Positions 17,362-40,657 of a stretch of DNA of 64,000 nucleotides are shown piece after piece; within the stretch, counting starts at the first letter, position 1; the number at the start of each line of letters is the position of its first letter. The DNA comes from a virus. Lineage: Duplodnaviria; Caudoviricetes. The notes under the pieces are model-generated. The model saw only the letters and a program-made list of their open reading frames with translations. It was not told where the DNA came from and did not search any database. Position numbers and translations under genes: made by a program. The stretch covers positions 13,511 to 77,510 of IMG/VR virus record IMGVR_UViG_3300024046_000025; one strand, written 5' to 3'.

Positions 17362-18015
17362 TCAGCCGTTCAGAAGCTTCATTGCCCGCATGGAAACATG
17401 CCCGCACCTGCCGATGATGATATGGTCATGAACCAGAATTCCCATCGGTTTGGCCACGGTAATGATCTCATGAGTCATCCGAAGATCGGCGGATGACGGC
17501 GCAGGATCGCCAGAGGGATGGTTGTGGACCAATATGAGCGAGATGGCCGACAATTCTAGCGTCCGCCGGATCACCTCGCGCGGATAGATAGGCGTATAGT
17601 CCACCGTACCGACCTGCTGCACCTCATCAGCGATAAGGCGGTTCTTCTTGTCGAGGAAAAGAACCCGGAACTGCTCGATGCTCTCGAAGGCCATTGCTGT
17701 GTGACAGTAATCCAGGAGCTGTGGCCAAGAGGTTAGAATTGGCCCTGCATCGCAAATTCGTTCCTTGGCGATTTGCTGTGTTGCCTCCATCACTGTCGAT
17801 AGAAGCCGAGCCGTGGCAGGGCCTACTCCTGCCACCTCCTGCATCCGATAGGATGGCGCCGCGATTGCCGCAGGCAGAGAGCCGAAACGTCGCAGTAATC
17901 CGGCTGAGATTTCCCTGGATCTCCTGATCCCCACGGCCGAGGAAAGTAGCCGAGTCAGAAGCTGTTCCTGGTCCTCGGCAGTCCATCTGGCAACGTACCT
18001 TTTGGTGTGCTGCAT
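17362..18015 (-). CDS. radC: RadC-family JAB/MPN domain protein
   Basis: VAGVG HhH-like motif, EQFRVLFLDKKNRLI, GTVDYTPIYPREV, LVHNHPSGDPAPSSAD, VHDHIIIG. Start taken as ATG 18015 (MQHTK). Confidence 0.92.
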   Translation of the reverse strand: MQHTKRYVARWTAEDQEQLLTRLLSSAVGIRRSREISAGLLRRFGSLPAAIAAPSYRMQEVAGVGPATARLLSTVMEATQQIAKERICDAGPILTSWPQLLDYCHTAMAFESIEQFRVLFLDKKNRLIADEVQQVGTVDYTPIYPREVIRRTLELSAISLILVHNHPSGDPAPSSADLRMTHEIITVAKPMGILVHDHIIIGRCGHVSMRAMKLLNG

Positions 18016-18016
18016 T

Positions 18017-18637
18017 TCATGCCACCTTCTCCTTCTGGTAGTCAGAAAGAATAGGTCCTGCCAGCCGGCCAAAGCGCCGCGCTCCGGCCAATGCTGCTTC
18101 CGTCACATCGAAATAAGCCGGAAGCCAGGCCTCTCCGCCAATATCAATGGCGTCGCCGTGAATATGGACCTGCCATCCCATGCGCCTCCAGATCGCCAGC
18201 CATTTCGCGTCCTGAATGCCACCGACCTGGCGGTATCCATTGGCTAAGCAGTATTCCATCACGGCGGCGCAGCACTGGGCCTTGAGAACGAGCCCCCCGC
18301 CTTCGCGGCGGTGAGCCACGACGAAACCGCGCGTCCATTCGACTATGCGGGGATCGCGCGGCATAGGCAGAAGGTTGCACGTATCCGGGAAAACCTCGCT
18401 CAGCATGTGGGGCAGGTGGGTTGGCACCAGTCGGGATCCGGCCACAAGCTCACTGCCATCAATGACCAACAGATAAGCTGCATGGGCAGTATCGAATTGG
18501 TCGACCTCCAAATTGTCAGGGGATGGAGGCACCCATCCTAGCTCCTCCGCATAAACTTTGTGGCGAGCCCGGTAGAAATGCTCGAGCTCCAGTTGAAAGA
18601 GATGTTCGTTCGTACGCGTAACGAAGTTAAATTGCAT
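18017..18637 (-). CDS. luxI: Acyl-homoserine-lactone synthase (LuxI family)
   Basis: Conserved RARHKVY..E.GW, EVDQFD, SRLVPT, EWTR residues; GGAGG RBS before ATG 18637. Confidence 0.92.
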   Translation of the reverse strand: MQFNFVTRTNEHLFQLELEHFYRARHKVYAEELGWVPPSPDNLEVDQFDTAHAAYLLVIDGSELVAGSRLVPTHLPHMLSEVFPDTCNLLPMPRDPRIVEWTRGFVVAHRREGGGLVLKAQCCAAVMEYCLANGYRQVGGIQDAKWLAIWRRMGWQVHIHGDAIDIGGEAWLPAYFDVTEAALAGARRFGRLAGPILSDYQKEKVA

Positions 18638-18692
18638 CTCACCCTCCAAGCGTTAACGGAGGGAAGGTGCAATTGCGTCTAGATCCTTTCCT

Positions 18693-18710
18693 ATTGTCCT
18701 TCGGGACGGT
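18693..18710. promoter_or_regulatory. lux-box-like imperfect palindrome upstream of luxI
   Basis: ATTGTCCTTCGGGACGGT (GTCC-N4-GGAC core), ~65 bp upstream of the luxI start. Confidence 0.6.
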
Positions 18711-18767
18711 TGTCAGGCCGAATCATCGGAGAAATATAAGAGAGTGCAGCTAGTTAGGGTGCGATGC

Positions 18768-19493
18768 TCATAGGATAATTTGGCGTGATCTGATTGCTTT
18801 GGCGACGGCGTGCGTTGTGGTTGTGGCGTTCAGTTTCACCCTGGCATGGGCGAGGTGTTCCTTCACCGTTCGTTCGGAGAGCATCAGGATATCTCCCACA
18901 TCAAGGTGGGATTTCCCGTTGGCTACCCACCGCAGGACCTCCCGTTCTCGCTCAGTCAATCGTGCAATAGCGGTTACATTGTCATCGTGGATTTCCACAG
19001 CGCGCATTTCCGCATGCAGGCAGATCAGATGTAACATTTCGCGCCCAAGCGTATCGAGCTCCACCGGCCTGTCAGTCGCTAAGGAAACAACTGCCTGCAC
19101 GCTTGAGGGGTCGCCCATCGGAAAGCCGATGCCATCAGCCAAGCCTAGGCCAGAAGCTTCGCTGGCGATCTGCGAGGCAACCCGTGTTCTTCGGCTTCCT
19201 TTCCGTGCCTCTTTCCAAGAGAAGGGGCGCGTCCGCGTCAGAGAGAAAAGGCTGACGGGGTCATGCCAAAAATATTGGCCTTGGCGGTATCGGGTTAGCC
19301 AAGCCTCTGGCCAGGTATGCGCAATAATATACGGCTCTGCATCTTCTCCCAAGGAAGGGAGCCGTGTCATCATGAAGTAGTCAAAACCAATGTTTTTTAA
19401 TGTGGTCGAGAAATCAACAATTAGCTCATGGAAAATTTTATGTTGATCGCAGCGGTCAATAAATGCCATTGCCTGGCAGACGATCTCCTGCAT
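18768..19493 (-). CDS. luxR: LuxR-family quorum-sensing regulator (autoinducer-binding domain + HTH)
   Basis: W(PEAW)..Y, DP, W, G signature residues of the AHL pocket; C-terminal LTEREREVLRWVANGKS...SERTVKEHL; GGAGGAGG RBS. Confidence 0.93.
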   Translation of the reverse strand: MQEIVCQAMAFIDRCDQHKIFHELIVDFSTTLKNIGFDYFMMTRLPSLGEDAEPYIIAHTWPEAWLTRYRQGQYFWHDPVSLFSLTRTRPFSWKEARKGSRRTRVASQIASEASGLGLADGIGFPMGDPSSVQAVVSLATDRPVELDTLGREMLHLICLHAEMRAVEIHDDNVTAIARLTEREREVLRWVANGKSHLDVGDILMLSERTVKEHLAHARVKLNATTTTHAVAKAIRSRQIIL

Positions 19494-19668
19494 TCCCTCC
19501 TCCGCAATCTTGCCTGCGAATTAATACTAATTACTTATAAAGAATGTCAGTAGGAAAATTACGAATTGTCCATAAGTGGGGTTGCTGTTAGCCACCTTGC
19601 CAACTAAATGGCGATTTGTTTCCGTATTGGAAACCGCATTCTGAGCAATGGGAGGCTGCTCCCGTTAG

Positions 19669-19980
19669 ATGGTATTAGGAAGGGTGACGCCCGATAATCT
19701 CATGATCGCAGATTTGAGCTACAAAAAAACTCCGGCGTCAGATGATGTTGTTGTTGAGCTATTTTGGCAGCGCGGCACTAGGATGGGGCAGGTAAAATTG
19801 CCTCCTTGCTTGGAGCAAAGTGTAGCTGAGAATGGTTTGCCTAATCTCACGCCGCTGCCTGTTATTTCAGCCGTGGCCTACGCAATGGTGCTAGCAGCTC
19901 AGACACGTCGCAGCCTGACGCTTTCTGGTGATGACCAAGTGTGGCCACTGGAGTGGGGTAGCCTGGTCCGCGTCCACTAG
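19669..19980 (+). CDS. Hypothetical protein divergent from luxR, 103 aa
   Basis: Only sizeable ORF in the interval; AT-richer codon usage like the lux genes; start uncertain. Confidence 0.5.
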   Translation: MVLGRVTPDNLMIADLSYKKTPASDDVVVELFWQRGTRMGQVKLPPCLEQSVAENGLPNLTPLPVISAVAYAMVLAAQTRRSLTLSGDDQVWPLEWGSLVRVH

Positions 19981-20005
19981 TGGGAAGGCAGCGCCAAATC
20001 GTGAA

Positions 20006-30886: not shown

Positions 30887-32575
30887 ATGCGCCTGCGCCC
30901 CCGCCAGAAGACCTTCGTCGAGCGCAGCGTGGCTGCGCTCGCCTCCCACGGCAACACGCTGGGTGTGGCGCCCACCGGCGCCGGCAAGACCATCATGCTC
31001 TCGGCGGTCACCGGCGAGATGATCGGCAACGGGGCCAAGGCCTGCGTGCTGGCGCATCGCGATGAGCTGACGGCGCAGAACCGCGCCAAGTTCCAGCGCG
31101 TGGTGCCGGGCGTCGCCACCTCGGTGATCGATGCGACGGAAAAGTCCTGGGGCGGCCAGGTCGCCTTCGCCATGGTGCCGACGCTGGCGCGGGCCTCGAA
31201 CCTCGCCGACATGCCGCGCCTCGACCTGCTGGTCGTGGATGAGGCGCACCATGCCGTCGCCGACAGCTACCGGCGCATTATCGACCGGGTGCGCGAGGCC
31301 AATCCCGATGCCCGGATCTTCGGGGTTACGGCGACACCGAGCCGGGGCGACAGGAAGGGGCTGCGAGAAGTCTTCGACAATGTCGCCGACCAGGTGCGTT
31401 TGGGCGAACTGATCGCCTCGGGCCATCTGGTGCCGCCGCGCACCTTCGTCATCGACGTGGGCGTGCAGGACGAGCTGCGCTCCGTCCGCAAGACGATGTC
31501 GGATTTCGACATGGCCGAGGTGGCGGGCATCATGGACCGCGCCCCCGTCACCGATGAGGTGATCCGGCACTGGAAGGAGAAGGCGGGCGACCGGCAGACC
31601 GTGGTGTTCTGCTCCACCATCGCCCATGCCGGGCACGTCACCGAGGCGTTCAGGGCGGCAGGCATTTCCGCCGCGCTGATCCATGGCGATCTGGCGGCCG
31701 AGACCCGCAAGGCGCTCCTCACCAGCTATGCGGCGGGCGACATTCGCGTCGTCGTCAACGTGGCTGTGCTGACCGAGGGCTGGGATCACCCGCCCACCTC
31801 CTGCGTCGTGCTGCTGCGCCCCAGCTCCTACAAGTCCACCATGATCCAGATGGTCGGGCGCGGCCTGCGCACCGTCGATCCCGAGGAACACCCCGGTATC
31901 GTCAAGACGGACTGCATCGTCCTCGACTTAGGCACTTCGAGCCTGATCCACGGCACGCTGGAACAGGATGTCGATCTCGACGGCAAGATCGCATCGGGCG
32001 AAGCACCGACGAAGACCTGTCCTGCCTGTGAGGCGGAGATTCCGCTGGCCGTCACCGAATGCCCGCTCTGCGGCGAGGCGTTCCCGCGCGAAGATCCTGG
32101 CGCGGGCGAAGGTGGTGGCACCGCGCCGCTCTCCGGCTTCATGATGACCGAGATCGATCTCCTGAAGCGGTCCAGCTTCGCATGGGTCGATCTCTTCGGC
32201 ACGGACGATGCGCTGATGGCCACCGGCTTCACGGCCTGGGGCGGCATCTTCTGGTTGGACGGGGTCTGGTACGCGATCGGCGGGGCGAAGGGGGAACGCC
32301 CGCGACTGCTGGGCGTGGGCGAGCGCACGGTCTGCCTCGCGCAGGCGGACGACTGGCTCAACACCCACGAAAGCGACGAGAGCGCCTTCAAGACCCGCTC
32401 CTGGCTGCGGCAGCCGCCGACGGAAAAGCAGCTGCAATACCTGCCGCCCGAGTGCCGACACGACTTCGGCGTGACGCGCTATCGCGCCTCGGCGCTGATG
32501 ACCTTCGGCTTCAACAAACGGGCCGTCCGTCAGCTGATCGGTGCGGCGGCCGCTCCCGAACGGAGGGCGGCATGA
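30887..32575 (+). CDS. Superfamily 2 DEAH helicase with Zn ribbon
   Basis: APTGAGKT, DEAH, TAT, QMVGRGLR; CPAC...CPLC. Confidence 0.92.
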   Translation: MRLRPRQKTFVERSVAALASHGNTLGVAPTGAGKTIMLSAVTGEMIGNGAKACVLAHRDELTAQNRAKFQRVVPGVATSVIDATEKSWGGQVAFAMVPTLARASNLADMPRLDLLVVDEAHHAVADSYRRIIDRVREANPDARIFGVTATPSRGDRKGLREVFDNVADQVRLGELIASGHLVPPRTFVIDVGVQDELRSVRKTMSDFDMAEVAGIMDRAPVTDEVIRHWKEKAGDRQTVVFCSTIAHAGHVTEAFRAAGISAALIHGDLAAETRKALLTSYAAGDIRVVVNVAVLTEGWDHPPTSCVVLLRPSSYKSTMIQMVGRGLRTVDPEEHPGIVKTDCIVLDLGTSSLIHGTLEQDVDLDGKIASGEAPTKTCPACEAEIPLAVTECPLCGEAFPREDPGAGEGGGTAPLSGFMMTEIDLLKRSSFAWVDLFGTDDALMATGFTAWGGIFWLDGVWYAIGGAKGERPRLLGVGERTVCLAQADDWLNTHESDESAFKTRSWLRQPPTEKQLQYLPPECRHDFGVTRYRASALMTFGFNKRAVRQLIGAAAAPERRAA

Positions 32576-32989: not shown

Positions 32990-33756
32990 TGCTGGATTTC
33001 AACCACCGCCCCAGCTTCGCAGACCGGGTCAATGTCGCTGTAGATCAGGCGCTGACCGCCGATCAGGCGATGCGCCCGTCGCGCGACTATCTCGGGGGCT
33101 CGCGCCTCGGCCATGCCTGCGAGCGCGCCCTGCAGTTCGAGTTCACCGCGACGCCGAAGGACGATGGCCAGGAGTTCACCGGCCAGGCGCTGCGCATCTT
33201 CGCCATCGGCCATGCGCTGGAGGATGTGGCGGTGGTCTGGCTGCGCGGCGCGGGCTTCGATCTCTATACGCGCAAGGGCCACCGTCCCGATGGCGGTCAG
33301 TTCGGCTTCTCGGTCGCGGGCGGGCGCATCCGCGGCCATGTCGATGGCATCATCGCCGCCGGACCCGAGGGCTTCGGTCTCGTCGTTCCCGCGCTCTGGG
33401 AATGCAAGACCATGAACGCGAAGAACTGGCGTGCCTGCGTCAAGGACGGCGTGACGAAGTCGAAGCCGGTCTACGCCGCCCAGATCGCGCTCTACCAGGC
33501 CTACATGGAAGGGACCGTCCCCGGCATCTCGGCCGCGCCCGCAGTGTTCACCGCAATCAACAAGGACACCGCCGAGCTTCATCACGAACTGGTCCCGTTC
33601 GATGCCGATCTCGCACAGCGCATGTCGGATCGAGGCGTGCGGATCCTGCAGGCGACCGACGCAGGCGAGTTTCTGCCGCGCATCGCCGCCAATCGCGACT
33701 TCTTCGAATGCCGCTTCTGCCCGTGGGCCGAACGCTGCTGGGGGCTCCCGGCATGA
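32989..33756 (+). CDS. Cas4-like / PD-(D/E)XK exonuclease
   Basis: GHVDGII, WECKT, QIALY, C-terminal CRFCPWAERC plus an N-terminal Cys (Fe-S staple). Confidence 0.8.
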   Translation: MLDFNHRPSFADRVNVAVDQALTADQAMRPSRDYLGGSRLGHACERALQFEFTATPKDDGQEFTGQALRIFAIGHALEDVAVVWLRGAGFDLYTRKGHRPDGGQFGFSVAGGRIRGHVDGIIAAGPEGFGLVVPALWECKTMNAKNWRACVKDGVTKSKPVYAAQIALYQAYMEGTVPGISAAPAVFTAINKDTAELHHELVPFDADLAQRMSDRGVRILQATDAGEFLPRIAANRDFFECRFCPWAERCWGLPA

Positions 33757-36068
33757 GCGACGACAACATCCTCCACTTCAACCCCTGGCGGGATTTCAAC
33801 GACGCGCCGCCGCTGCCCGATCCCTTCGCGGTCGAACCGGATGCGAGCCAGATCGCCCGCTTCGTCTACGTGGTCTTCGGCTACTCCGAGGGTCTGATCC
33901 CGGTTCGCGGCTTCGTCGACAAGGGTCAAGGCAAGGACGGCCGCCCGCACAACATCTGGATCGAGGCAGATGCCACGGCGCCCGAGAAGCTCGCGACCTT
34001 CGCGGGCTGGGCTGCGCGAGAAGGCGCCGCAGTCTATGTCATCCCCGGCACGGTCGTGGAGACCGGTCAGGCTCGCGCCGCCGACGTGATGCAGATGCAG
34101 AGCCTCGTGGTCGATCTCGACTCGGGCGACATCCCCGCCAAGCTCGATCACCTCGTCCATCATCTCGGCCGTCCGACGCTGATCGTCGAGAGCGGTGGGC
34201 GCACGCTCAAGGGCGCGACCAAGCTCCATGTCTGGTGGCAACTGACCGAGCCGGCGGAAGGCGCGGACCTCGCCATGCTCTGCCAGCTTCGCGGCGAGAT
34301 CGCACTGAAAGTCGGCGGCGACACGCATTTCCGCTCGGCCCACCAGCCTATCCGCGTCCCCGGCACCGTCTATCACAAGGGCGGGTTGACCCGGCTCGTG
34401 CAGATCCGCGAGGCGACCGGGATGGAGGTCGATCTCGCCGAGATGGCCGAGCGCGTCGCCGACATGCCGCCCATGCCCGGCATCGGCATGGCCACGGCCG
34501 AGCCGCGCCAGAAACCCGCCATCGACGACGTGCTGGTGACGCCGGTCCACGAAGGTGGCGCGGACGACTGGTCCCGTTTCGAGGGCGCCTCAGCCGCCAT
34601 CGGCTATTTCCTGCGCCTCGTCCATGAGGGCCGGATGTCGATGGACGAGGGCTGGACGGCGATCTGCGGCTACAACGCCGCGATACTGCGTCCGTCCTGG
34701 CCGCTCGACCGGCTGAAGCGCGAGACGAACCGCCTGTGGGAGTTGCACATCAAGCGGCACGGACCGCCGCTCCTTCGCCTTGACAGCGCGATGACGGTAC
34801 CGGCCGATCTTCCGACCTTCAGTCTCGGCGCGCTGCTCGATGACACGAGCCCGATGCCCGAGGACATCATCGGCCCGCGTGTCCTGACCCCGGGCGGGCT
34901 TCTGGTGCTGGGCGGCGCTCCGAAGGTCGGCAAGAGCGACTTCCTGATCTCCTGGCTCGTGCACATGGCGGCGGGCGTGCCGTTCCTCGGCTTTACGCCG
35001 CCCCGGCCGCTGCGCGTGTTCTACCTGCAGGCCGAAATCCAGTATCACTATCTGCGCGAGCGCATGCAGCAGATCGCACTGCCCGCCACCGTGATCGCCG
35101 CCGCGCGCGACACCTTCATCGCCACGCCGAAACTCAGGCTGCTCCTCGACGCCAAGGGCGTCGCCCGCGTGGCCGAGGCAATCCGGGCGGCATTTCCGGA
35201 CGCGCCGCCCGACATCATCGTCATCGACCCGATCCGCAACCTCTTCGACGGTGGCCCCGACGGCGGCGGCGAGAACGACAACGCCGCCATGATGTTCTTC
35301 CTGAAGGATCGGGTGGAGTCCCTGCGCGAGGCGATCAATCCGGAGGCGGGCGTCATCCTCGCCCACCACACGCGCAAGGCCACCAGGCAACAGGTCAAGG
35401 ACGATCCCTTCCTCGCTCTTTCCGGCGCCAGCGCGCTGCGCGGTTTCTACACCACCGGCCTGTTGATGCACCTTCCCGACGAGGACAGCTCCGTCCGCAG
35501 GCTCGAGATCGAGCTGCGCAACGGACCTGCGCTGCCGGGAAAGCTGATCGACAAGGTGAAGGGCGAATGGGTCGAGCTAAACCCGATGAACGAGCGCCTT
35601 GTGCGCAAGGAGGTCGGTGCCAGGTTCGATGCCGAACGTCTGCGCAAGCATGACGTCATTCTCGGCATGTTGCTGGACGAGGCGGCCAGCGAACGCCTCT
35701 ACACCGCGATGCAGTTCGCGGAAAAGTTCGAGAACCGAAGCGGTCTGGGCAGCAAGCACACCATCCGCGAGCGCCTCAGCGTGCTGGCGACCAAGGGCTT
35801 CGTGAAGTTCCTGCGCGATCCCTCCGGCTTCGGTTTCCCCATCACCCGGTCGCGCTTCGGCTATCTCTGCGTCGAGGGCATGCAGTTCGGCGCGCCCGTC
35901 GAACATGTCGATCCAACCAATGGCGAAGTCACCACACAGGTCCGCCAGGTTCTTCCCAGTCACTTCAAATGCCCCCAATCCGGGCTTTGCCTTCAGGTCG
36001 AGAACCCTGCCGTCTGGGTCTACCCGGACGGGCTCGAAGACGACCTTACTCATATGAGTGAGGCCTGA
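33753..36068 (+). CDS. Primase-helicase (RepB/AEP-like primase + AAA_25 helicase)
   Basis: VVDLD, LHVWW, QPIRVPGT; Walker A GAPKVGKS; Walker B IVIDP. Start ATG 33753 (ATGA overlap). Confidence 0.85.
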   Translation: MSDDNILHFNPWRDFNDAPPLPDPFAVEPDASQIARFVYVVFGYSEGLIPVRGFVDKGQGKDGRPHNIWIEADATAPEKLATFAGWAAREGAAVYVIPGTVVETGQARAADVMQMQSLVVDLDSGDIPAKLDHLVHHLGRPTLIVESGGRTLKGATKLHVWWQLTEPAEGADLAMLCQLRGEIALKVGGDTHFRSAHQPIRVPGTVYHKGGLTRLVQIREATGMEVDLAEMAERVADMPPMPGIGMATAEPRQKPAIDDVLVTPVHEGGADDWSRFEGASAAIGYFLRLVHEGRMSMDEGWTAICGYNAAILRPSWPLDRLKRETNRLWELHIKRHGPPLLRLDSAMTVPADLPTFSLGALLDDTSPMPEDIIGPRVLTPGGLLVLGGAPKVGKSDFLISWLVHMAAGVPFLGFTPPRPLRVFYLQAEIQYHYLRERMQQIALPATVIAAARDTFIATPKLRLLLDAKGVARVAEAIRAAFPDAPPDIIVIDPIRNLFDGGPDGGGENDNAAMMFFLKDRVESLREAINPEAGVILAHHTRKATRQQVKDDPFLALSGASALRGFYTTGLLMHLPDEDSSVRRLEIELRNGPALPGKLIDKVKGEWVELNPMNERLVRKEVGARFDAERLRKHDVILGMLLDEAASERLYTAMQFAEKFENRSGLGSKHTIRERLSVLATKGFVKFLRDPSGFGFPITRSRFGYLCVEGMQFGAPVEHVDPTNGEVTTQVRQVLPSHFKCPQSGLCLQVENPAVWVYPDGLEDDLTHMSEA

Positions 36069-36193: not shown

Positions 36194-36402
36194 GCTGTCG
36201 CGGAACAGTCAGGTGCAAAACCCCCATACTACGTATGGGGCGGCCACCCGTCAGGGTTGGCCTCGCCCCATACGTCGCGGGGCCTCGCGCGCCTCCGCCC
36301 ATGCCTTCTCCCACCCGATCCGACGACGGCGGCCCCGTACCGCCAAGCACCAGACCGCCGTCGTCTTCCACCACCACAAGCCACCGGCAAAGGAGGCCCA
36401 TC

Positions 36403-36942
36403 ATGGCTCAGCCGACTCTGATCCCGAATTCCGACGGCGCAAGGTTTGAATCGCTGCCGCTCGCCACGCCCCGAAACCGCTGCATCCTTGCGCTCGACCT
36501 CGGCACCTCGACCGGCTGGGCGCTGCGCGGCCAAGACGGTCTGATCACCAGCGGCACCGTCTCGCTTCGTCCCGGCCGCTTCGATGGCGGCGGCATGCGT
36601 TATCTGCGCTTCACCAACTGGCTGACCGAGATCGATCGGCTGTCCGGCCCCGTCGCAGCGATCTGGTTCGAGGAGGTCCGCCGCCACGCCGGCACCGACG
36701 CGAGCCACATCTACGGCGGGCTCATGGCGACGCTGACCGCATGGGCCGAACTGCGCGGTGTGCCCTACGAGGGCGTGCCGGTCGGCACGATCAAGCATCA
36801 CGCAACGGCCAGGGGCAATGCCGACAAGGCCGCAATGATCGCCGCCGTCCGCGCCCGCGGCTTCAGCCCTGTCGACGACAACGAGGCGGACGCCATCGCG
36901 ATCCTGCTCTGGGCGATCGAGACGAACGGGGGTGTCGCATGA
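36403..36942 (+). CDS. RuvC-like Holliday junction resolvase-fold protein
   Basis: ILALDLGTSTGWA, IWFEEV, DDNEADAIAIL; AGGAGG RBS. Confidence 0.75.
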   Translation: MAQPTLIPNSDGARFESLPLATPRNRCILALDLGTSTGWALRGQDGLITSGTVSLRPGRFDGGGMRYLRFTNWLTEIDRLSGPVAAIWFEEVRRHAGTDASHIYGGLMATLTAWAELRGVPYEGVPVGTIKHHATARGNADKAAMIAAVRARGFSPVDDNEADAIAILLWAIETNGGVA

Positions 36943-37139
36943 GGTGGTATCCCAAAGGCTACGGCGGCGAACGCCGGGATCCCGAGCAGGTCAAACGCGA
37001 GGGCTGGCAGGAAGAGGGCCTCCTTGCGGTCTCCGCCGATGATGACCGTCTCACCTGGCCCGAGCGTGAGCTGGTCCGGCAGTTGGGCGAGAAGCTCTAC
37101 GGCCCGCGCCCCTCGGAAAGGGAGGCACGCCATGGCTGA
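36939..37139 (+). CDS. Hypothetical protein, 66 aa
   Basis: ATGA-coupled; MRWYPKGYGGERR start. Confidence 0.6.
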   Translation: MRWYPKGYGGERRDPEQVKREGWQEEGLLAVSADDDRLTWPERELVRQLGEKLYGPRPSEREARHG

Positions 37140-37512
37140 CCGCATCTGGACCGCCGACGATGTCGCCGACCATTTCGAGGAGGCGTTCCGCACCCTGCGC
37201 AAGCTGCCGCCGGTGAAGGTGCAGGGCTATTTCAACACCTGGCCGGAGATCGTGCGAACGAGTCGCGAGATCGCCTTCATGGAACCCGAGCCGATGCGCG
37301 TCTGGCCCTCGGCCGCCGCGATCACCCGGCTCGAGCAGACCTTCGACTGGGTGCTCTGGATCGAGGAGGCGGAGCGCAAGCTGGTCTGGTCTCGCGCCGC
37401 CCGCGTGCCGTGGAAGCAGATCAGCGGCGAGCTCGGCTGCGACCGCACCACCGCATGGCGGCGCTGGCAGCTCGCGCTCACAAAGATCGCGGCACGGCTG
37501 AATGCGCAGTGA
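37132..37512 (+). CDS. DUF6362-like protein with sigma-region-4-like HTH (late regulator candidate)
   Basis: VPWKQISGELGCDRTTAWRRW; last early gene before the cos region. Confidence 0.65.
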   Translation: MADRIWTADDVADHFEEAFRTLRKLPPVKVQGYFNTWPEIVRTSREIAFMEPEPMRVWPSAAAITRLEQTFDWVLWIEEAERKLVWSRAARVPWKQISGELGCDRTTAWRRWQLALTKIAARLNAQ

Positions 37513-37661
37513 CTCCAATGTGTTGCAACACTTTTCCCTTCGACATCTGCAACATGATCGTGCTATCCGAAGGACAAGATGGGGAGAGTGCGCCGAAGGG
37601 CTCGCTCTCCCCTTTGCATTGATGCGCCTCGCGCCGAAGCCGGCACGTCGGGCGAGTTCGC

Positions 37662-37830
37662 GGGTCCTTCCTCGCGAAAACCGTATGCTGGCGGGCGAAG
37701 CGCGGCGCATCGCCAGCGACAGGGCCGGATTTTTGGGAAGCCACCCGGAAGCCGGAGTCGCCTGAACCCGCCTGAAACACTGCAAATTCAAACCCTTGAT
37801 GCTGGACTCCGGGGGCCGGAAGCCAAGGGT
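37662..37830 (+). other. Candidate lambda-like cos site (cosQ-cosN-cosB)
   Basis: GGGTCCT at 37662-37668; TATGC-TGGCGGGCGAAG-CGCGG at 37684-37705; downstream repeats and a near-consensus IHF site at 37786-37798. Confidence 0.6.
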
Positions 37831-37857
37831 ATCCACCCGACCGAGGAACCACGCCAC

Positions 37858-39240
37858 ATGACGCTGAGCTTCTCCCCGGACGCGATCGAGATGTGGCCGC
37901 TGTCGCGCCTGCAGCCCTACGCGAAGAACGCGAAAGCACATGGCGCGGACCAGGTCGTGAAGATCGCCGCCAGCATGGCCGAGTTCGGCTGGACCGTGCC
38001 GTGCCTGGTGGCAGAGGACGGGGAGCTGATCGCTGGCCATGGACGGGTGCTGGCCGCGACGCAGCTGGGGCTGACGGAAGCGCCAGTGATTGTGCTGGGT
38101 CACCTGACCGAGGCGCAGCGCCGGGCCTATCGCATCGCGGACAACAAGCTGACGGAACTGGGCAACTGGGACGAGGCGCTGCTGTCGGCGGAACTGAACG
38201 AGTTGCTGGCCGAGGATTTCGACCTGTCGCTGGTCGGCTTCTCGGATGGCGAGTTGGACAAACTCTTGGCATTCGTGCCGGAGGGGGACAGTGAAGACAG
38301 TGGCGCCGGAGGCTCCGTGCCGCCGGTGACCATCCCCGAGCCGCCGCGCAACCCGGCGTCGCGCACCGGCGATCTCTGGATCCTTGGTGAGCATCGTCTG
38401 TTCTGCGGTGACGCGACCTCCAATGCCGATGTCCGCCGTCTGATGAACGGCGAGCGCGCGGTGCTGTTCGCCACCGATCCGCCGTACCTCGTCGATTACG
38501 ACGGCTCCAACCATCCGACGCGCAACAAGGACTGGTCGGCGTCCTACGGCACGACCTGGGACGACAGTTCTCAGGGCGCGGAGCTCTACGACGGCTTCAT
38601 CGCTGCGGCGGTGGCCGAGGCGATCACCGAGGATGCGGCGTGGTATTGCTGGCACGCTTCCCGCCGCCAGGCGATGCTTGAGGCCTGCTGGGAGAAGGCG
38701 GGCGCCTTCGTGCACCAGCAGATCATCTGGGTGAAGGATCGCGGAGTTCTGACCCGGTCGCATTACCTCTGGAAGCACGAGCCCTGCTTCATGGGCTGGC
38801 GCAGACCGAACCGCCCGCCAAAGGTGGCCGAGGAAACGCTGCCATCGACATGGGCGCTGCCGAACTTTGCCAAGGACGACCGGCCCGACCACCCGACGCC
38901 AAAGCCGCTGGACGCCTTCGGGATCCCGATGCGCCAGCATGTGGCGCGGGGCGGGCTCTGCTACGAGCCGTTCTCGGGCTCCGGGTCGCAGATCATGGCG
39001 GGCGAGGCGAACGGCCGCCGCGTCTTCGCGATGGAGATCAGCCCGGCCTATGTCGACGTGGCCGTCGAGCGCTGGCAGGCTGAGACCGACAAGGACGCAA
39101 TCCTCGACGGTGACGGGCGGACCTTCGCGCAGGTGAAAGCCGAGCGGCTGGGCGACGACGCTGAAGCCCCGGCCGATGCCGCAGCCCCGGACGCCGACAC
39201 CGCCCCAGAACCCGCCCGCAAACGCAAATCCGCAGCCTGA
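37858..39240 (+). CDS. ParB-like domain + DNA amino-methyltransferase (N6A/N4C, beta class)
   Basis: N-terminal LIAGHGR...RIADNKL; DPPY precedes YEPFSGSGS; HPTPKP. Confidence 0.9.
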   Translation: MTLSFSPDAIEMWPLSRLQPYAKNAKAHGADQVVKIAASMAEFGWTVPCLVAEDGELIAGHGRVLAATQLGLTEAPVIVLGHLTEAQRRAYRIADNKLTELGNWDEALLSAELNELLAEDFDLSLVGFSDGELDKLLAFVPEGDSEDSGAGGSVPPVTIPEPPRNPASRTGDLWILGEHRLFCGDATSNADVRRLMNGERAVLFATDPPYLVDYDGSNHPTRNKDWSASYGTTWDDSSQGAELYDGFIAAAVAEAITEDAAWYCWHASRRQAMLEACWEKAGAFVHQQIIWVKDRGVLTRSHYLWKHEPCFMGWRRPNRPPKVAEETLPSTWALPNFAKDDRPDHPTPKPLDAFGIPMRQHVARGGLCYEPFSGSGSQIMAGEANGRRVFAMEISPAYVDVAVERWQAETDKDAILDGDGRTFAQVKAERLGDDAEAPADAAAPDADTAPEPARKRKSAA

Positions 39241-39244
39241 GGCC

Positions 39245-40426
39245 ATGCATGACCTGGCTCTACCTTCCTCCGGACGCGCTTCCGGAGCCGGAGACGCATG
39301 CCTGTTCGGCCTCTCCCTCTGCTCCGGCGCGGGCGGGCTCGACCTCGGACTCGCCATCGCCATCCCCAGATATCGTGCTGTGGGCCATGTCGAACGGGAA
39401 ACCTACGCCGCAGCCATCCTCGTGGCGCGGATGGAAGACGCGTCCCTGGATCCGGCACCTGTCTGGGACGACGTTGGAACCTTCGACGGCCGCCCGTGGC
39501 GCGGCACGGTGGACATCATCACTGCGGGCTATCCGTGCCAGCCGTTCTCCGTCGCGGGCAAACGCCGGGGCGCCGGCGATCCGCGCCATATCTGGCCACA
39601 TGTCGCCCGGATCATCGGCGAGGTCGAGCCGCCCTTCGTCTTCCTCGAGAACGTCGCCCATCATCTCCGCCTCGGCTTTCCTGAAGTCGCCAGCGGACTG
39701 GTCGGCATGGGCTACCACCTTGCGGCAGGCCTCTTCACGGCGGCGGAAGTCGGCGCGCCCCACAGGCGTGAGCGGCTCTTCATCCTCGCGATCCGCGAGG
39801 GAGATGAACTGGCCAACCCCGCGCGCCTGCTCTGGAACCCGGTCGAGTGGCGGCAACCGGACCGAATTGCTGCAGCTCTGGCCGACGCCCCGGGCCAGCG
39901 CGAACGAGAACCGGCAGACGAAGCCGACGCCCTCGCAGGAAGTGGGTCAGCACGGGATGAACCTCGCGACGACGGCGGCGTTATGGCCGACGCCGCAGAC
40001 CGACAGTTTTCGCAGCCGGGGTGGCGACCGAAAGGACGAGAAGGGCCTGGACCGCATGGCGCGGGACTGGCCGACGCCGATGGCGAACGACGGGTGCAAG
40101 CCGAGCGCCGGCAACCGCCGGACGGCCGACCTGACCCATGCGGCGGGGATATGGATGACGCCGACGGCGCGCGACCACAAGGATGGGGCGACGACGTTGG
40201 TGAATACGCCGGTGAACGGCCTGCTTGGCCGCCAGGTCCTGGTGACGCCCATGGCTGGGAACGATATCTCCGAAGCGCGCCGGACCTTGAACCCGCTGTT
40301 CGTCGAGGCGCTGATGGGCTGGCCCACCGGGTGGACCGGCTTCGGCTCTGTGGCAACGGAGTGGTCCCGCTGGTTGCGGCGCATGCGCTCAGAACTCTTG
40401 CAGCTGAATTGCTGGCCGATGGGTGA
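39245..40426 (+). CDS. DNA cytosine-5 methyltransferase, alpha frame (motifs I-VIII and X)
   Basis: SLCSGAGG (I), GYPCQPFS (IV), ENV (VI), HRRERLF (VIII), RLRLCGNGVV (X). Confidence 0.88.
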   Translation: MHDLALPSSGRASGAGDACLFGLSLCSGAGGLDLGLAIAIPRYRAVGHVERETYAAAILVARMEDASLDPAPVWDDVGTFDGRPWRGTVDIITAGYPCQPFSVAGKRRGAGDPRHIWPHVARIIGEVEPPFVFLENVAHHLRLGFPEVASGLVGMGYHLAAGLFTAAEVGAPHRRERLFILAIREGDELANPARLLWNPVEWRQPDRIAAALADAPGQREREPADEADALAGSGSARDEPRDDGGVMADAADRQFSQPGWRPKGREGPGPHGAGLADADGERRVQAERRQPPDGRPDPCGGDMDDADGARPQGWGDDVGEYAGERPAWPPGPGDAHGWERYLRSAPDLEPAVRRGADGLAHRVDRLRLCGNGVVPLVAAHALRTLAAELLADG

Positions 40427-40442
40427 AGGTGCGCCGGCATGA
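39249..40442 (+). CDS. Overlapping second frame of the C5 methyltransferase (beta-subunit candidate)
   Basis: 397 codons with no stop; repeated WPTP motifs and LNPLFVEALMGWPTGW (motif IX-like); alternative internal ATG at 39804. Confidence 0.65.
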   Translation: MTWLYLPPDALPEPETHACSASPSAPARAGSTSDSPSPSPDIVLWAMSNGKPTPQPSSWRGWKTRPWIRHLSGTTLEPSTAARGAARWTSSLRAIRASRSPSRANAGAPAIRAISGHMSPGSSARSSRPSSSSRTSPIISASAFLKSPADWSAWATTLRQASSRRRKSARPTGVSGSSSSRSAREMNWPTPRACSGTRSSGGNRTELLQLWPTPRASANENRQTKPTPSQEVGQHGMNLATTAALWPTPQTDSFRSRGGDRKDEKGLDRMARDWPTPMANDGCKPSAGNRRTADLTHAAGIWMTPTARDHKDGATTLVNTPVNGLLGRQVLVTPMAGNDISEARRTLNPLFVEALMGWPTGWTGFGSVATEWSRWLRRMRSELLQLNCWPMGEGAPA

Positions 40443-40657
40443 AGCAGTCGCGCCTCATGTCGCTGATCGAAGCCATCGCCAACGTGGCCGTCGGTTATGG
40501 CGTCGCCGTGGTCGCGCAGATCCTGATCTTTCCTATCTTCGGGCTGCATACGACGCTGGTGCAGAACCTGAAGATGGGCGCGGTGTTCACCATCGTGTCG
40601 ATCGCCCGTTCGTTTGCCTTGCGGCGGCTGTTCGAGGCGATGCGGGGGAATAAATAA
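40439..40657 (+). CDS. Small two-TM phage protein, 72 aa
   Basis: ATGA-coupled to the beta frame stop; hydrophobic. Confidence 0.7.
   Translation: MKQSRLMSLIEAIANVAVGYGVAVVAQILIFPIFGLHTTLVQNLKMGAVFTIVSIARSFALRRLFEAMRGNK

What the first reader, a model, noticed from the sequence alone, without database searches (positions are those of the whole stretch)
39245..40442. C5 methyltransferase written in two fully overlapping frames (ATGCATG double start)
Seen: two ATGs 4 nt apart open frames of 393 and 397 codons over the same 1.2 kb. Frame alpha has motifs I, IV, VI, VIII and X, but its region between VIII and X is low-complexity with no motif IX. In exactly that region frame beta becomes protein-like and ends in LNPLFVEALMGWPTGW, resembling motif IX. 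The downstream gene is ATGA-coupled to the beta stop, implying beta is translated. Established: M.EcoHK31I is a heterodimer whose beta chain, carrying motif IX, is encoded in an alternative frame inside the alpha gene. Inference: a phage-borne two-chain methylase that automated annotation would half-miss.
Basis: partly seen in the sequence, partly recalled or inferred. Interest (0 to 1): 0.72.

Follow-up and report, generated by a model that had tools for sequence, protein, structure and literature searches.

The report
Cytosine methylase gene read in two frames
One 1.2-kb phage gene is kept open by selection in two overlapping reading frames that most likely yield the catalytic body and the DNA-reading half of a single cytosine methyltransferase, a layout proven so far for one E. 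coli enzyme but seen here across thousands of phage gene clusters and half-missed by annotation.

Summary
Alpha (39245-40426, 393 aa) and beta (39249-40442, 397 aa, frame +1) are both open.

- **Not a high-GC artefact.** Both frames stay open in 78 of 80 alpha-found relatives. They are also open in every diverged viral locus inspected, down to 50% GC, where the third frame has 19 stops.
- **Selected frame switches.** Among 79 close relatives the wobble position runs alpha, then beta, then alpha.
- **Alpha** folds as the large domain of M.HhaI (motifs I-VIII plus X), with a 125-residue low-confidence linker.
- **Beta** carries the variable WxTP-repeat region and a motif IX-like LNPLFVEALMGWPTGW.
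- **Start codons** lie 2-4 nt apart in all lineages.
- **Complex model** joins alpha to beta's C-terminal half (ipSAE 0.88, best control 0.00). A split gene of a known fold may pass from memory.

Best reading (0.72): two full-length chains made from adjacent starts. Alpha is the large domain; beta is the small domain (TRD plus IX) behind a weakly constrained leader.

It differs from M.EcoHK31I: beta is co-extensive rather than nested, and it appears to hold the TRD.

Rivals are an internal beta start and a double frameshift.

This scan reached the same reading earlier on other genomes. No translation or activity data exist.

The parts
37579..39240 (+). Upstream gene: ParB-domain / amino (N6/N4-type) DNA methyltransferase. 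Its TGA stop is at 39238-39240, 5 nt before the alpha ATG.
   Evidence: phrog_498 DNA methyltransferase 1e-126 and ParB-like families; sequence
39239..39242 (+). Shine-Dalgarno-like GAGG, 2 nt before the alpha ATG and 6 nt before the beta ATG
   Evidence: read from the sequence; whether it functions is inferred
39245..40426 (+). Alpha ORF, 393 aa. It holds the large (catalytic, AdoMet-binding) domain of a C5 DNA methyltransferase: motifs I-VIII, a linker, then motif X.
   Evidence: Hundreds of homologs of exactly 393 aa at 80-96% identity. AF2 model against M.HhaI 2uyc_A: Z 19.5, rmsd 3.3 A, 195 residues aligned, model 18-393 against chain 10-326.
39249..40442 (+). Beta ORF, 397 aa, frame +1 relative to alpha. 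It has an N-terminal leader, then the WxTP-repeat variable region, motif IX and a C-terminal helix.
   Evidence: Full-length beta-frame ORFs starting MxWLYxP occur in diverged relatives.
39245..39785 (+). Segment where alpha is the selected frame: the most variable codon position is alpha position 3. Holds motif I (39305-39349), IV (39527-39550), VI (39647-39655) and VIII (39761-39787).
   Evidence: nucleotide diversity by codon phase in 79 close homologs
39249..39683 (+). Beta leader (aa 1-145). It is kept open but only weakly constrained as protein.
   Evidence: Identity between diverged pairs 0.337 against 0.261 after synonymous shuffling (z 2.5). The third-frame control gives 0.293 against 0.246 (z 1.6). 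pLDDT is below 50.
39720..39749 (+). Beta LRxxxxxRRK patch (aa 158-167), overlapping alpha motif VII/VIII. This is a candidate dual-coded stretch.
   Evidence: Alpha A166 is GCG in 20/20 and E168 is GAA in 20/20 diverged lineages, which fixes beta R165-K167
39805..40235 (+). Segment where beta is the selected frame: the most variable position is beta position 3. It holds WxTP repeats from 39807 and WMTPTARDHKDG from 40152, and is the presumed target-recognition region.
   Evidence: The repeat region varies in length and content between lineages.
39839..40213 (+). Alpha linker (aa 199-323): low complexity, predicted disordered, kept free of stops
   Evidence: pLDDT 25-35; alpha frame open in 131/131 loci against 2-8 expected stops
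40287..40337 (+). Beta motif IX-like LNPLFVEALMGWPTGWT (aa 347-363). The same bases encode alpha LEPAVRRGADGLAHRVD, so this is a dual-constrained stretch.
   Evidence: All three codon phases are nearly invariant. Beta L347, N348, P349, F351, V352, E353, L355, M356, G357, P359 and T363 are invariant. Beta wobble is biased so that alpha P350, R354 and D357 are kept.
40352..40369 (+). Alpha motif X, GNGVVP (aa 370-375), followed by a helix to aa 392
   Evidence: G370, N371, G372 and V373 are invariant; pLDDT 81-93; aligned to the C-terminus of M.HhaI
40338..40439 (+). Beta C-terminal tail (aa 364-397), with W375, M379, R380, L383 and L386 nearly invariant. It is encoded by the same bases as alpha motif X and its helix.
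   Evidence: alpha L376 wobble is G in 17/18. Beta 372-386 contacts alpha 374-383 in the complex model.
40439..40657 (+). Downstream gene: a 72-aa small membrane protein. Its ATG overlaps the beta stop (ATGA).
   Evidence: phrog_4276 2e-25; the beta stop lies in ATGA in 98 of 113 loci

Best explanation
The locus encodes a two-chain C5 DNA cytosine methyltransferase. Both chains are written over the same 1.2 kb in two frames.

- **Initiation.** Ribosomes arrive from the upstream methylase gene or from the shared GAGG. They start either at ATG 39245 (alpha) or at ATG 39249 (beta).
- **Alpha** supplies the whole large domain. That is motifs I-VIII at the N end and motif X at the C end, joined by about 125 residues of disordered linker. 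The linker's sequence is dictated by beta's coding needs.
- **Beta** begins with about 145 weakly constrained residues, dictated by alpha's coding needs. It then supplies the small domain: a modular WxTP-repeat target-recognition region, motif IX, and a C-terminal helix.
- **Assembly.** The two chains assemble non-covalently into an enzyme with the M.HhaI architecture. It would methylate phage DNA, probably to evade host restriction.

What is shown:
- both frames are open;
- the selected frame switches along the gene;
- the two starts lie next to each other;
- alpha has the fold of the large domain.

What is inferred:
- both chains are translated;
- the chains bind each other and both are required;
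- beta's middle is the TRD;
- the biological role.
For: 1. **Frames open in relatives.** Both frames are open over the full length in 78/80 loci found with alpha alone. They are also open in every diverged viral locus inspected, including GC 0.50-0.58 loci where the third frame has 14-19 stops.
2. **Shuffles.** Synonymous shuffles give median P(no stop) of 0.035 for alpha across the middle. For beta across the N part in diverged lineages the figure is 0.00-0.15. No stops were observed.
3. **Frame switch.** The wobble position switches alpha (nt 1-540), beta (about 560-990), alpha (about 1080-1198). All three phases are frozen around motif IX.
4. **Start codons.** They lie 2-4 nt apart in every lineage: ATGCATG, GTGAATG or TTGAATG, or overlapping (A/G)TGTGG.
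5. **Alpha structure.** Alpha alone models as the M.HhaI large domain only: Z 19.5, rmsd 3.3 A, 195 aligned, spanning chain residues 10-326. The linker at 199-323 has pLDDT below 35.
6. **Same bases, both frames constrained.** Fixed wobble at alpha 348-360, L376 and A381, and fixed beta M379/R380, show both frames constrained over 40287-40420. A single chain could contain only one of the two readings.
7. **Complex model.** Alpha plus beta 183-397 scored ipSAE 0.88 against a best control of 0.00.
   - That mark was reached by 58 of 80 solved complexes and 2 of 110 mismatched pairs; the counts hold only roughly because my own alignments were used.
   - The runs agree in at least 54% of contacts, and the partner's pLDDT is at least 46.
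   - The interface joins alpha 29-39, 57-67, 166-175 and 324-383 to beta 300-310, 327-334 and 343-386.
   - The model supports binding but does not show it. As two parts of a known fold it may pass by likeness to solved methyltransferases.
8. **Precedent.** M.EcoHK31I needs two chains, one encoded in another frame of the other's gene (PMC2836561). Detached fragments of monomeric C5 methyltransferases complement each other in vivo (PMC3404938).
9. **Family size.** The beta C-half family has 12,065 representatives at E<=1e-10. Of 57 top hits with a long N-terminal extension, 56 lack PF00145 and show the beta-type N-terminus (consensus xxWxYxP), so no single-frame form appeared among the close relatives sampled.
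Against: - There is no protein, ribosome-profiling or methylation evidence for either chain.
- Beta alone does not fold with confidence (mean pLDDT 38.8). Its pLDDT in the complex is 46-48, so calling its middle a TRD rests on position, variability and motif resemblance only.
- Beta has no hit in Pfam, NCBIfam or by sequence to the PDB.
- The beta leader shows little protein-level constraint. An enzyme that carries about 145 and 125 residues of passenger sequence is an odd design.
- In many close relatives no Shine-Dalgarno sequence precedes the start pair, so how initiation happens and how it is shared is unknown.
- The diverged viral loci were found with a beta-frame query, which biases that set towards intact beta.
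Confidence: 0.72

Rival explanations
1. Two chains, but beta is made from an internal start just before the repeat region, as a short protein of about 210 aa like the M.EcoHK31I beta chain. On this reading, the open beta frame upstream is not used for translation.
For: - The beta leader is barely constrained as protein.
- In this window an ATG at 39804 follows GAGGGAG.
- In M.EcoHK31I, internal methionines of beta served as starts (PMC2836561).
- Gene callers often report short beta proteins that start internally.
Against: - The ATG at 39804 is not conserved. Relatives read T, S or N there. The commoner internal ATG near beta aa 136 is just an alpha AAT/AAC wobble variant.
- The beta frame is open right back to a start codon lying 2-4 nt from alpha's start in all lineages, with P(no stop) of 0.00-0.05 in many diverged ones.
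- In the GTGAATG lineages a TGA sits directly before the beta ATG, so that ORF begins exactly at the paired start.
Confidence: 0.13
2. One polypeptide made by two programmed ribosomal frameshifts: +1 after motif VIII and -1 after motif IX. This would give a conventional I-VIII, TRD, IX, X enzyme.
For: - The selected frame runs alpha, beta, alpha, in the order of a normal monomeric enzyme.
- In diverged lineages the first WxTP of beta starts exactly where alpha motif VIII ends.
Against: - No XXXYYYZ heptamer, homopolymer run or in-frame stop is conserved at the first switch in 15 diverged lineages.
- Frameshifting would not require beta to be open over the first 180 codons, or alpha over the middle 150, or a second start codon.
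- GW of motif IX is only about 6 codons from GNGV, and alpha residues upstream of motif X overlap motif IX and are themselves conserved.
- Two serial frameshifts would give a low yield.
Confidence: 0.06
3. Only alpha is a real protein, and the beta ORF is a by-product of high GC content and of conservation of alpha.
For: - At 68% GC, long alternative ORFs are common. An antisense 770-codon ORF crosses the upstream gene.
- Databases annotate alpha alone as the methyltransferase.
Against: - Across about 430 nt the wobble position is that of beta, not alpha.
- Alpha there is low complexity with pLDDT below 35.
- Beta's motif IX is invariant over lineages that share only 33-48% beta identity with this window.
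- Both frames stay open at 50% GC.
Confidence: 0.02

Closest known systems
M.EcoHK31I (E. coli HK31, YGGCCR; Lee, Kam and Shaw 1995, as described in PMC2836561 and PMC3404938)
   Same: - It is a C5 methyltransferase of two polypeptides whose genes overlap in different frames of one stretch of DNA.
[quoted passage not shown]
- Both chains are needed for activity.
   Different: - There, beta is short and nested inside alpha, and the TRD is assigned to alpha.
- Here, beta is co-extensive with alpha, starting 4 nt after it and stopping 16 nt after it.
- Here, the variable region evolves in the beta frame, and alpha's middle looks like a passenger linker.
- Sequence kinship with M.EcoHK31I could not be tested, because its sequence was not on hand.
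M.AquI (CYCGRG), a two-subunit C5 methyltransferase (PMC3404938)
   Same: It is a natural heterodimer split within the variable region, and the small subunit carries motif IX.
   Different: - Its subunits are described as consecutive parts of the enzyme (motifs I-VIII plus part of the variable region, then the rest plus IX-X), not as one stretch read in two frames.
- Its small subunit also holds motif X; here motif X returns to the alpha frame.
M.HhaI and other monomeric C5 methyltransferases (PF00145)
   Same: - Alpha's N part matches by sequence (2e-22).
- The alpha model superposes on the large domain, including the C-terminal motif X helix (Z 19.5).
   Different: M.HhaI is a single chain in one frame, with the small domain inserted between motifs VIII and X. 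Here that insert is replaced in alpha by a disordered linker and appears to be supplied by beta.
Tymovirus replicase / p69 overlap (PMC8227390)
   Same: It is a very long same-strand dual-coding region. Own knowledge, not checked here: its two starts lie a few nucleotides apart.
   Different: It belongs to a eukaryotic RNA virus, and its two products are unrelated proteins with separate functions. They are not two parts of one enzyme.

Membership tests
C5 DNA cytosine methyltransferase (PF00145 / TIGR00675) | Motifs I (FxGxG), IV (PCQ), VI (ENV) and VIII (RxR) in the catalytic domain | tested here: met
   All four are in alpha: PF00145 7e-32 over aa 23-194 and M.HhaI 2e-22. C26, G28, G30, G31, P97, C98, Q99, E135, N136, V137, R175, E176 and R177 are invariant.
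C5 DNA cytosine methyltransferase (PF00145 / TIGR00675) | Motif X (GNxV) helix completing the large domain | tested here: met
   Alpha GNGVVP 370-375 is invariant. The model aligns to M.HhaI up to chain residue 326.
C5 DNA cytosine methyltransferase (PF00145 / TIGR00675) | Small domain (TRD plus motif IX) in the same polypeptide | tested here: not met
   - Alpha 199-323 is low complexity with pLDDT below 35.
- Only 195 residues align to the 327 of M.HhaI.
- TIGR00675 scores 89 bits, below its cut-off of 100.65.
C5 DNA cytosine methyltransferase (PF00145 / TIGR00675) | Cytosine-5 methylation of a defined DNA sequence | not testable with these tools
   This needs a methylome or an in vitro assay.
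M.EcoHK31I-type two-chain methyltransferase | Second chain encoded in another frame of the first chain's gene | tested here: met
   Beta is in frame +1 over the same bases and is kept open by selection. It is co-extensive rather than nested.
M.EcoHK31I-type two-chain methyltransferase | Alpha holds I-VIII, TRD and X; beta holds only motif IX | tested here: not met
   The variable region between VIII and IX evolves under beta-frame selection, and alpha there is a linker. Motif IX in beta and X in alpha do agree.
M.EcoHK31I-type two-chain methyltransferase | Both chains made and both required for activity | not testable with these tools
   There is only a model: ipSAE 0.88 against a best control of 0.00, which supports binding but does not show it.
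M.EcoHK31I-type two-chain methyltransferase | Sequence homology to M.EcoHK31I alpha and beta | not tested
Programmed ribosomal frameshift genes (prfB, dnaX, IS type) | Conserved slippery site, or a stop or rare codon, at the frame switch | tested here: not met
   No heptamer, homopolymer or stop was found at the alpha-to-beta switch in 15 diverged lineages.

The most novel reading that the evidence does not exclude
A very large family of phage and prophage C5 methyltransferases is built as an obligate heterodimer.

- **Size of the family.** It has thousands of 50%-identity clusters, spanning 50-70% GC and hosts from Alphaproteobacteria to cyanobacteria.
- **Layout.** The two full-length chains are translated from start codons 2-4 nt apart over one fully dual-coding 1.0-1.4 kb gene.
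- **Interleaving.** Each chain's functional domain lies opposite the other's passenger segment. Over the last 150 nt the same bases encode two helices that pack against each other.
- **Significance.** To my knowledge, not checked in the literature, this would be among the longest conserved same-strand gene overlaps in prokaryotic viruses. It would also be a case where one enzyme, not two unrelated proteins, is split across frames.
Probability: 0.6. Interest if true: 0.85.

Novelty: new variant of a known kind. Interest (0 to 1): 0.77.

Why it matters
**Annotation.** If both chains are made, standard annotation misdescribes thousands of phage methyltransferase genes. It reports a truncated-looking Dcm and, at best, a hypothetical protein.

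**Specificity prediction.** Methylation specificity could not be predicted from the annotated protein, because the recognition part lies in the other frame.

**Overlap evolution.** The family would be a natural experiment in dual coding.
- The recognition region changes by repeat gain and loss, yet never closes the other frame.
- About 100-150 nt carry real constraint in both frames.
- The likely origin, which is inference, is a monomeric gene split by frame changes and rescued by fragment complementation. That gives a testable route to overlapping genes other than de novo overprinting.

**Engineering.** It also offers naturally split methyltransferases for targeted-methylation work.

Tried and rejected
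- **Beta alone** gave no confident fold (mean pLDDT 38.8), so no fold search of the small domain was possible.
- **Beta against databases:** a profile against PDB sequences gave only chance hits. Pfam and NCBIfam gave nothing. The ESM Atlas gave viral PF00145 clusters at 0.85, which is a lead only.
- **Single-frame relatives:** of 57 top beta-family representatives with long N-terminal extensions, only 1 carried PF00145. The PF00145-bearing hits inspected (P0197, P0124, P0125; P0149, with no Pfam entry, is likewise chimeric) change frame at different places, which suggests indels. L163 has the frames permuted before motif IX by an apparent 1-nt indel.
- **Cultured phages and plasmids** hold few copies: 4 and 3 records.
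- **Literature:** searches for the motif strings and for a description of this layout found only the M.EcoHK31I papers. The 1995 paper itself is not held.
- **Not run:** sequencing-run and read-laying tools, because reads cannot tell which frame is translated.
Full report
**Observation**

The stretch 39245-40442 holds two open frames on the + strand.
- Alpha runs from ATG 39245 to 40426 and is 393 aa.
- Beta runs from ATG 39249 to 40442 and is 397 aa, in frame +1 relative to alpha.

Alpha carries C5 methyltransferase motifs I, IV, VI, VIII and X. Pfam PF00145 matches only aa 23-194 (7e-32). Beta has no Pfam or NCBIfam family. It shows WxTP repeats from aa 187, WMTPTARDHKDG at 302-313 and LNPLFVEALMGWPTGW at 347-362. 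Its stop overlaps the ATG of the next gene (ATGA at 40439-40442).

The surroundings are a phage or prophage:
- helicase (30887-32575), primase (33402-36068) and RuvC (36235-36942);
- a ParB-fused amino-methyltransferase (37579-39240);
- then this gene, followed by a small membrane protein;
- large terminase, portal and capsid genes.

The genome tool treats the window as a virus record.

**Is it chance?**

The gene is 68% GC, so long alternative ORFs need a control.
- Among 80 loci fetched with alpha alone (84-93% identity), 78 have both frames open end to end.
- The two exceptions carry one nonsense substitution each. One is in beta (L093) and one in alpha (L114).
- All diverged viral loci inspected also have both frames open. 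At first some seemed to lack alpha, but only because my motif pattern was too narrow.
- The family spans GC 0.50-0.70. At GC 0.50 (L061) both frames are open while the third frame has 19 stops.
- Shuffling synonymous codons within each gene predicts 2-8 alpha-frame stops across the beta-coded middle, with median P(none) 0.035. It predicts 0.7-5 beta-frame stops across the alpha-coded N part. None was observed in 131 loci, apart from the TGA that sits directly before the beta ATG in GTGAATG lineages.
- Many of these lineages share under 50% alpha identity with this window, so the joint probability is negligible.

**Which frame is under selection?**

I measured nucleotide diversity by codon phase in 79 close homologs.

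| Gene nt | Most variable position | Frame under selection |
|---|---|---|
| 1-540 | alpha position 3 | alpha |
| about 560-990 | beta position 3 | beta |
| about 990-1080 | none; all three nearly frozen | both |
| about 1080-1198 | alpha position 3 | alpha |

So the functional pieces are alpha 1-185, beta about 185-365 and alpha about 345-393.

I then looked at 20 lineages below 80% alpha identity.
- Wobble bases of conserved alpha residues vary freely in the N domain. The exceptions fix beta K51, W88 and R165-K167: E52 is GAA in 18/18, V89 is GTG in 19/20, A166 is GCG in 20/20 and E168 is GAA in 20/20.
- The wobble is fixed over alpha 348-360, which is beta motif IX, and at L376 and A381, which give beta W375 and R380.
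- Conversely, beta's wobble in motif IX is biased so that alpha P350, R354 and D357 are kept.

About 40287-40420 is therefore truly dual-coded.

The beta leader as a whole is only weakly constrained. Its identity between diverged pairs is 0.337 against 0.261 after shuffling (z 2.5). A third-frame control gives 0.293 against 0.246 (z 1.6).

**Starts**

The two start codons are always adjacent.
- ATGCATG occurs in 97 loci.
- GTGAATG or TTGAATG occurs in 11 loci.
- In other lineages the starts overlap as (A/G)TGTGG, with beta's NTG first and alpha's GTG 2 nt later.

In this window GAGG (39239-39242) lies 2 nt from the alpha ATG and 6 nt from the beta ATG. The upstream gene stops 5 nt before alpha.

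The internal ATG at 39804 is not conserved. A commoner internal ATG near beta aa 136 is merely the AAT variant of alpha N136.

No slippery heptamer, homopolymer or stop is conserved where selection passes from alpha to beta. In diverged lineages the first WxTP of beta begins exactly where alpha motif VIII ends.

**Structure**

- **Alpha.** It models well at 20-198 and 371-393, while 199-323 has pLDDT below 35. It superposes on M.HhaI with Z 19.5, rmsd 3.3 A and 195 aligned residues, from chain residue 10 to 326. That is the size of the large domain only.
- **Beta.** It gives no confident fold alone (mean pLDDT 38.8) and has no PDB relative by sequence.
- **Complex.** The model of alpha with beta 183-397 gave ipSAE 0.88 against a best control of 0.00.
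  - That mark was reached by 58 of 80 solved complexes and 2 of 110 mismatched pairs. The counts hold only roughly because my own alignments were used.
  - The runs agree in at least 54% of contacts, and the partner's pLDDT is at least 46.
  - The confident interface joins alpha 29-39, 57-67, 166-175 and 324-383 to beta 300-310, 327-334 and 343-386.
  - It includes alpha 374-383 against beta 356-357 and 379-383, which are two helices written by the same bases.
  - This supports binding but does not show it. As parts of a known fold, the pair may pass by likeness to solved methyltransferases.

**Spread and annotation**

- A profile of the beta C-half finds 31,019 representatives at E<=0.001, 12,065 at <=1e-10 and 690 at <=1e-30.
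- Of 57 top hits with at least 115 residues ahead of the match, 56 lack PF00145, and their consensus begins with the beta-type leader xxWxYxP. No single-frame relative appeared among the close relatives sampled.
- Synechococcus phage Yong-M2-251 has the same layout with only alpha annotated.
- Komagataeibacter phage phiKX1 has a related layout.
- In Roseicitreum plasmid pRA03 only a beta C-terminal piece is listed in the gene table, as 'DNA methyltransferase'.

**Mechanism proposed**

Two full-length chains start from adjacent start codons.
- Alpha is the large domain: catalysis and cofactor binding.
- Beta is the small domain: recognition plus motif IX.
- Each chain carries a passenger segment opposite the other's functional part.
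- The chains assemble as in M.HhaI.

There is a precedent: detached fragments of monomeric C5 methyltransferases complement each other in vivo (PMC3404938). The role is most likely protection of phage DNA from host restriction. The gene is an orphan, next to a second methylase; no nearby ORF scanned matched a nuclease other than RuvC, though a restriction endonuclease was not specifically sought. This is inference.

A plausible origin, also inference, is a monomeric gene whose middle was moved to another frame. Dual initiation and fragment complementation would then have rescued it.

**Comparison with known systems**

M.EcoHK31I is the closest known system.
- It has two chains and overlapping frames, with motif IX in beta and motifs I-VIII and X in alpha (PMC2836561, PMC3404938).
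- There, beta is nested and short and the TRD is assigned to alpha.
- Here, beta is co-extensive and holds the variable region.

M.AquI splits differently, with motifs IX and X together in its small subunit. The layout here is a new variant of a known kind.

**Earlier scan notes**

This scan reached the same reading earlier on other genomes (e1-5852967, e1-5939120). I reached mine before reading those notes and tested the claims here independently.

**Limits**

- No translation, binding or activity data exist.
- The diverged viral set was found with a beta-frame query.
- Calling beta's middle a TRD is unproven.
- Kinship with M.EcoHK31I was not tested.

Noticed in passing
window 37579-39240: A ParB-domain / amino-methyltransferase gene lies directly upstream, stopping 5 nt before alpha. 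That makes two orphan methylases in tandem, with no restriction gene recognised among the neighbours that were scanned.
   Followed up: partly
window 37051-39363 (- strand): A 770-codon antisense ORF crosses the whole upstream methylase gene. It is probably a high-GC artefact, and it shows why the two-frame claim needed controls.
   Followed up: no
window 39807-40190 and alignment A2 columns 200-560: The WxTP / TPxARD repeats of beta vary in number and spacing between lineages by whole-unit gains and losses. Alpha lengths range from 302 to 452 aa as a result, and the alpha frame is never closed.
   Followed up: partly
L164 (Roseicitreum antarcticum plasmid pRA03, 1405-2154) and L161 (Synechococcus phage Yong-M2-251, 855-1994): Public annotation is inconsistent. 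The gene table held for the plasmid lists only a 249-aa beta C-terminal piece as 'DNA methyltransferase' (WP_223814412.1). The phage record lists only alpha.
   Followed up: yes
L163:1500-4300: In one viral contig the frames are permuted before motif IX, so that motif IX continues the alpha frame and motif X sits in the third frame. This looks like a 1-nt indel or an assembly error.
   Followed up: partly
L093 and L114: Two of the 80 close relatives carry a single nonsense substitution, one in beta (Q to stop) and one in the alpha linker (W to stop). They may be decaying prophage copies or low-coverage errors. L093 is one of three copies in one genome.
   Followed up: partly
window 1-28000 versus 28000-64000; 18001-20000: GC is 0.59-0.63 in the first 28 kb and 0.65-0.69 afterwards, with a dip to 0.54 at 18-20 kb. 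This may mark a module or insertion boundary.
   Followed up: no
window 40439-40657: A small 72-aa membrane protein (phrog_4276) is ATGA-coupled to the beta stop. The same coupling occurs in 98 of 113 related loci.
   Followed up: partly
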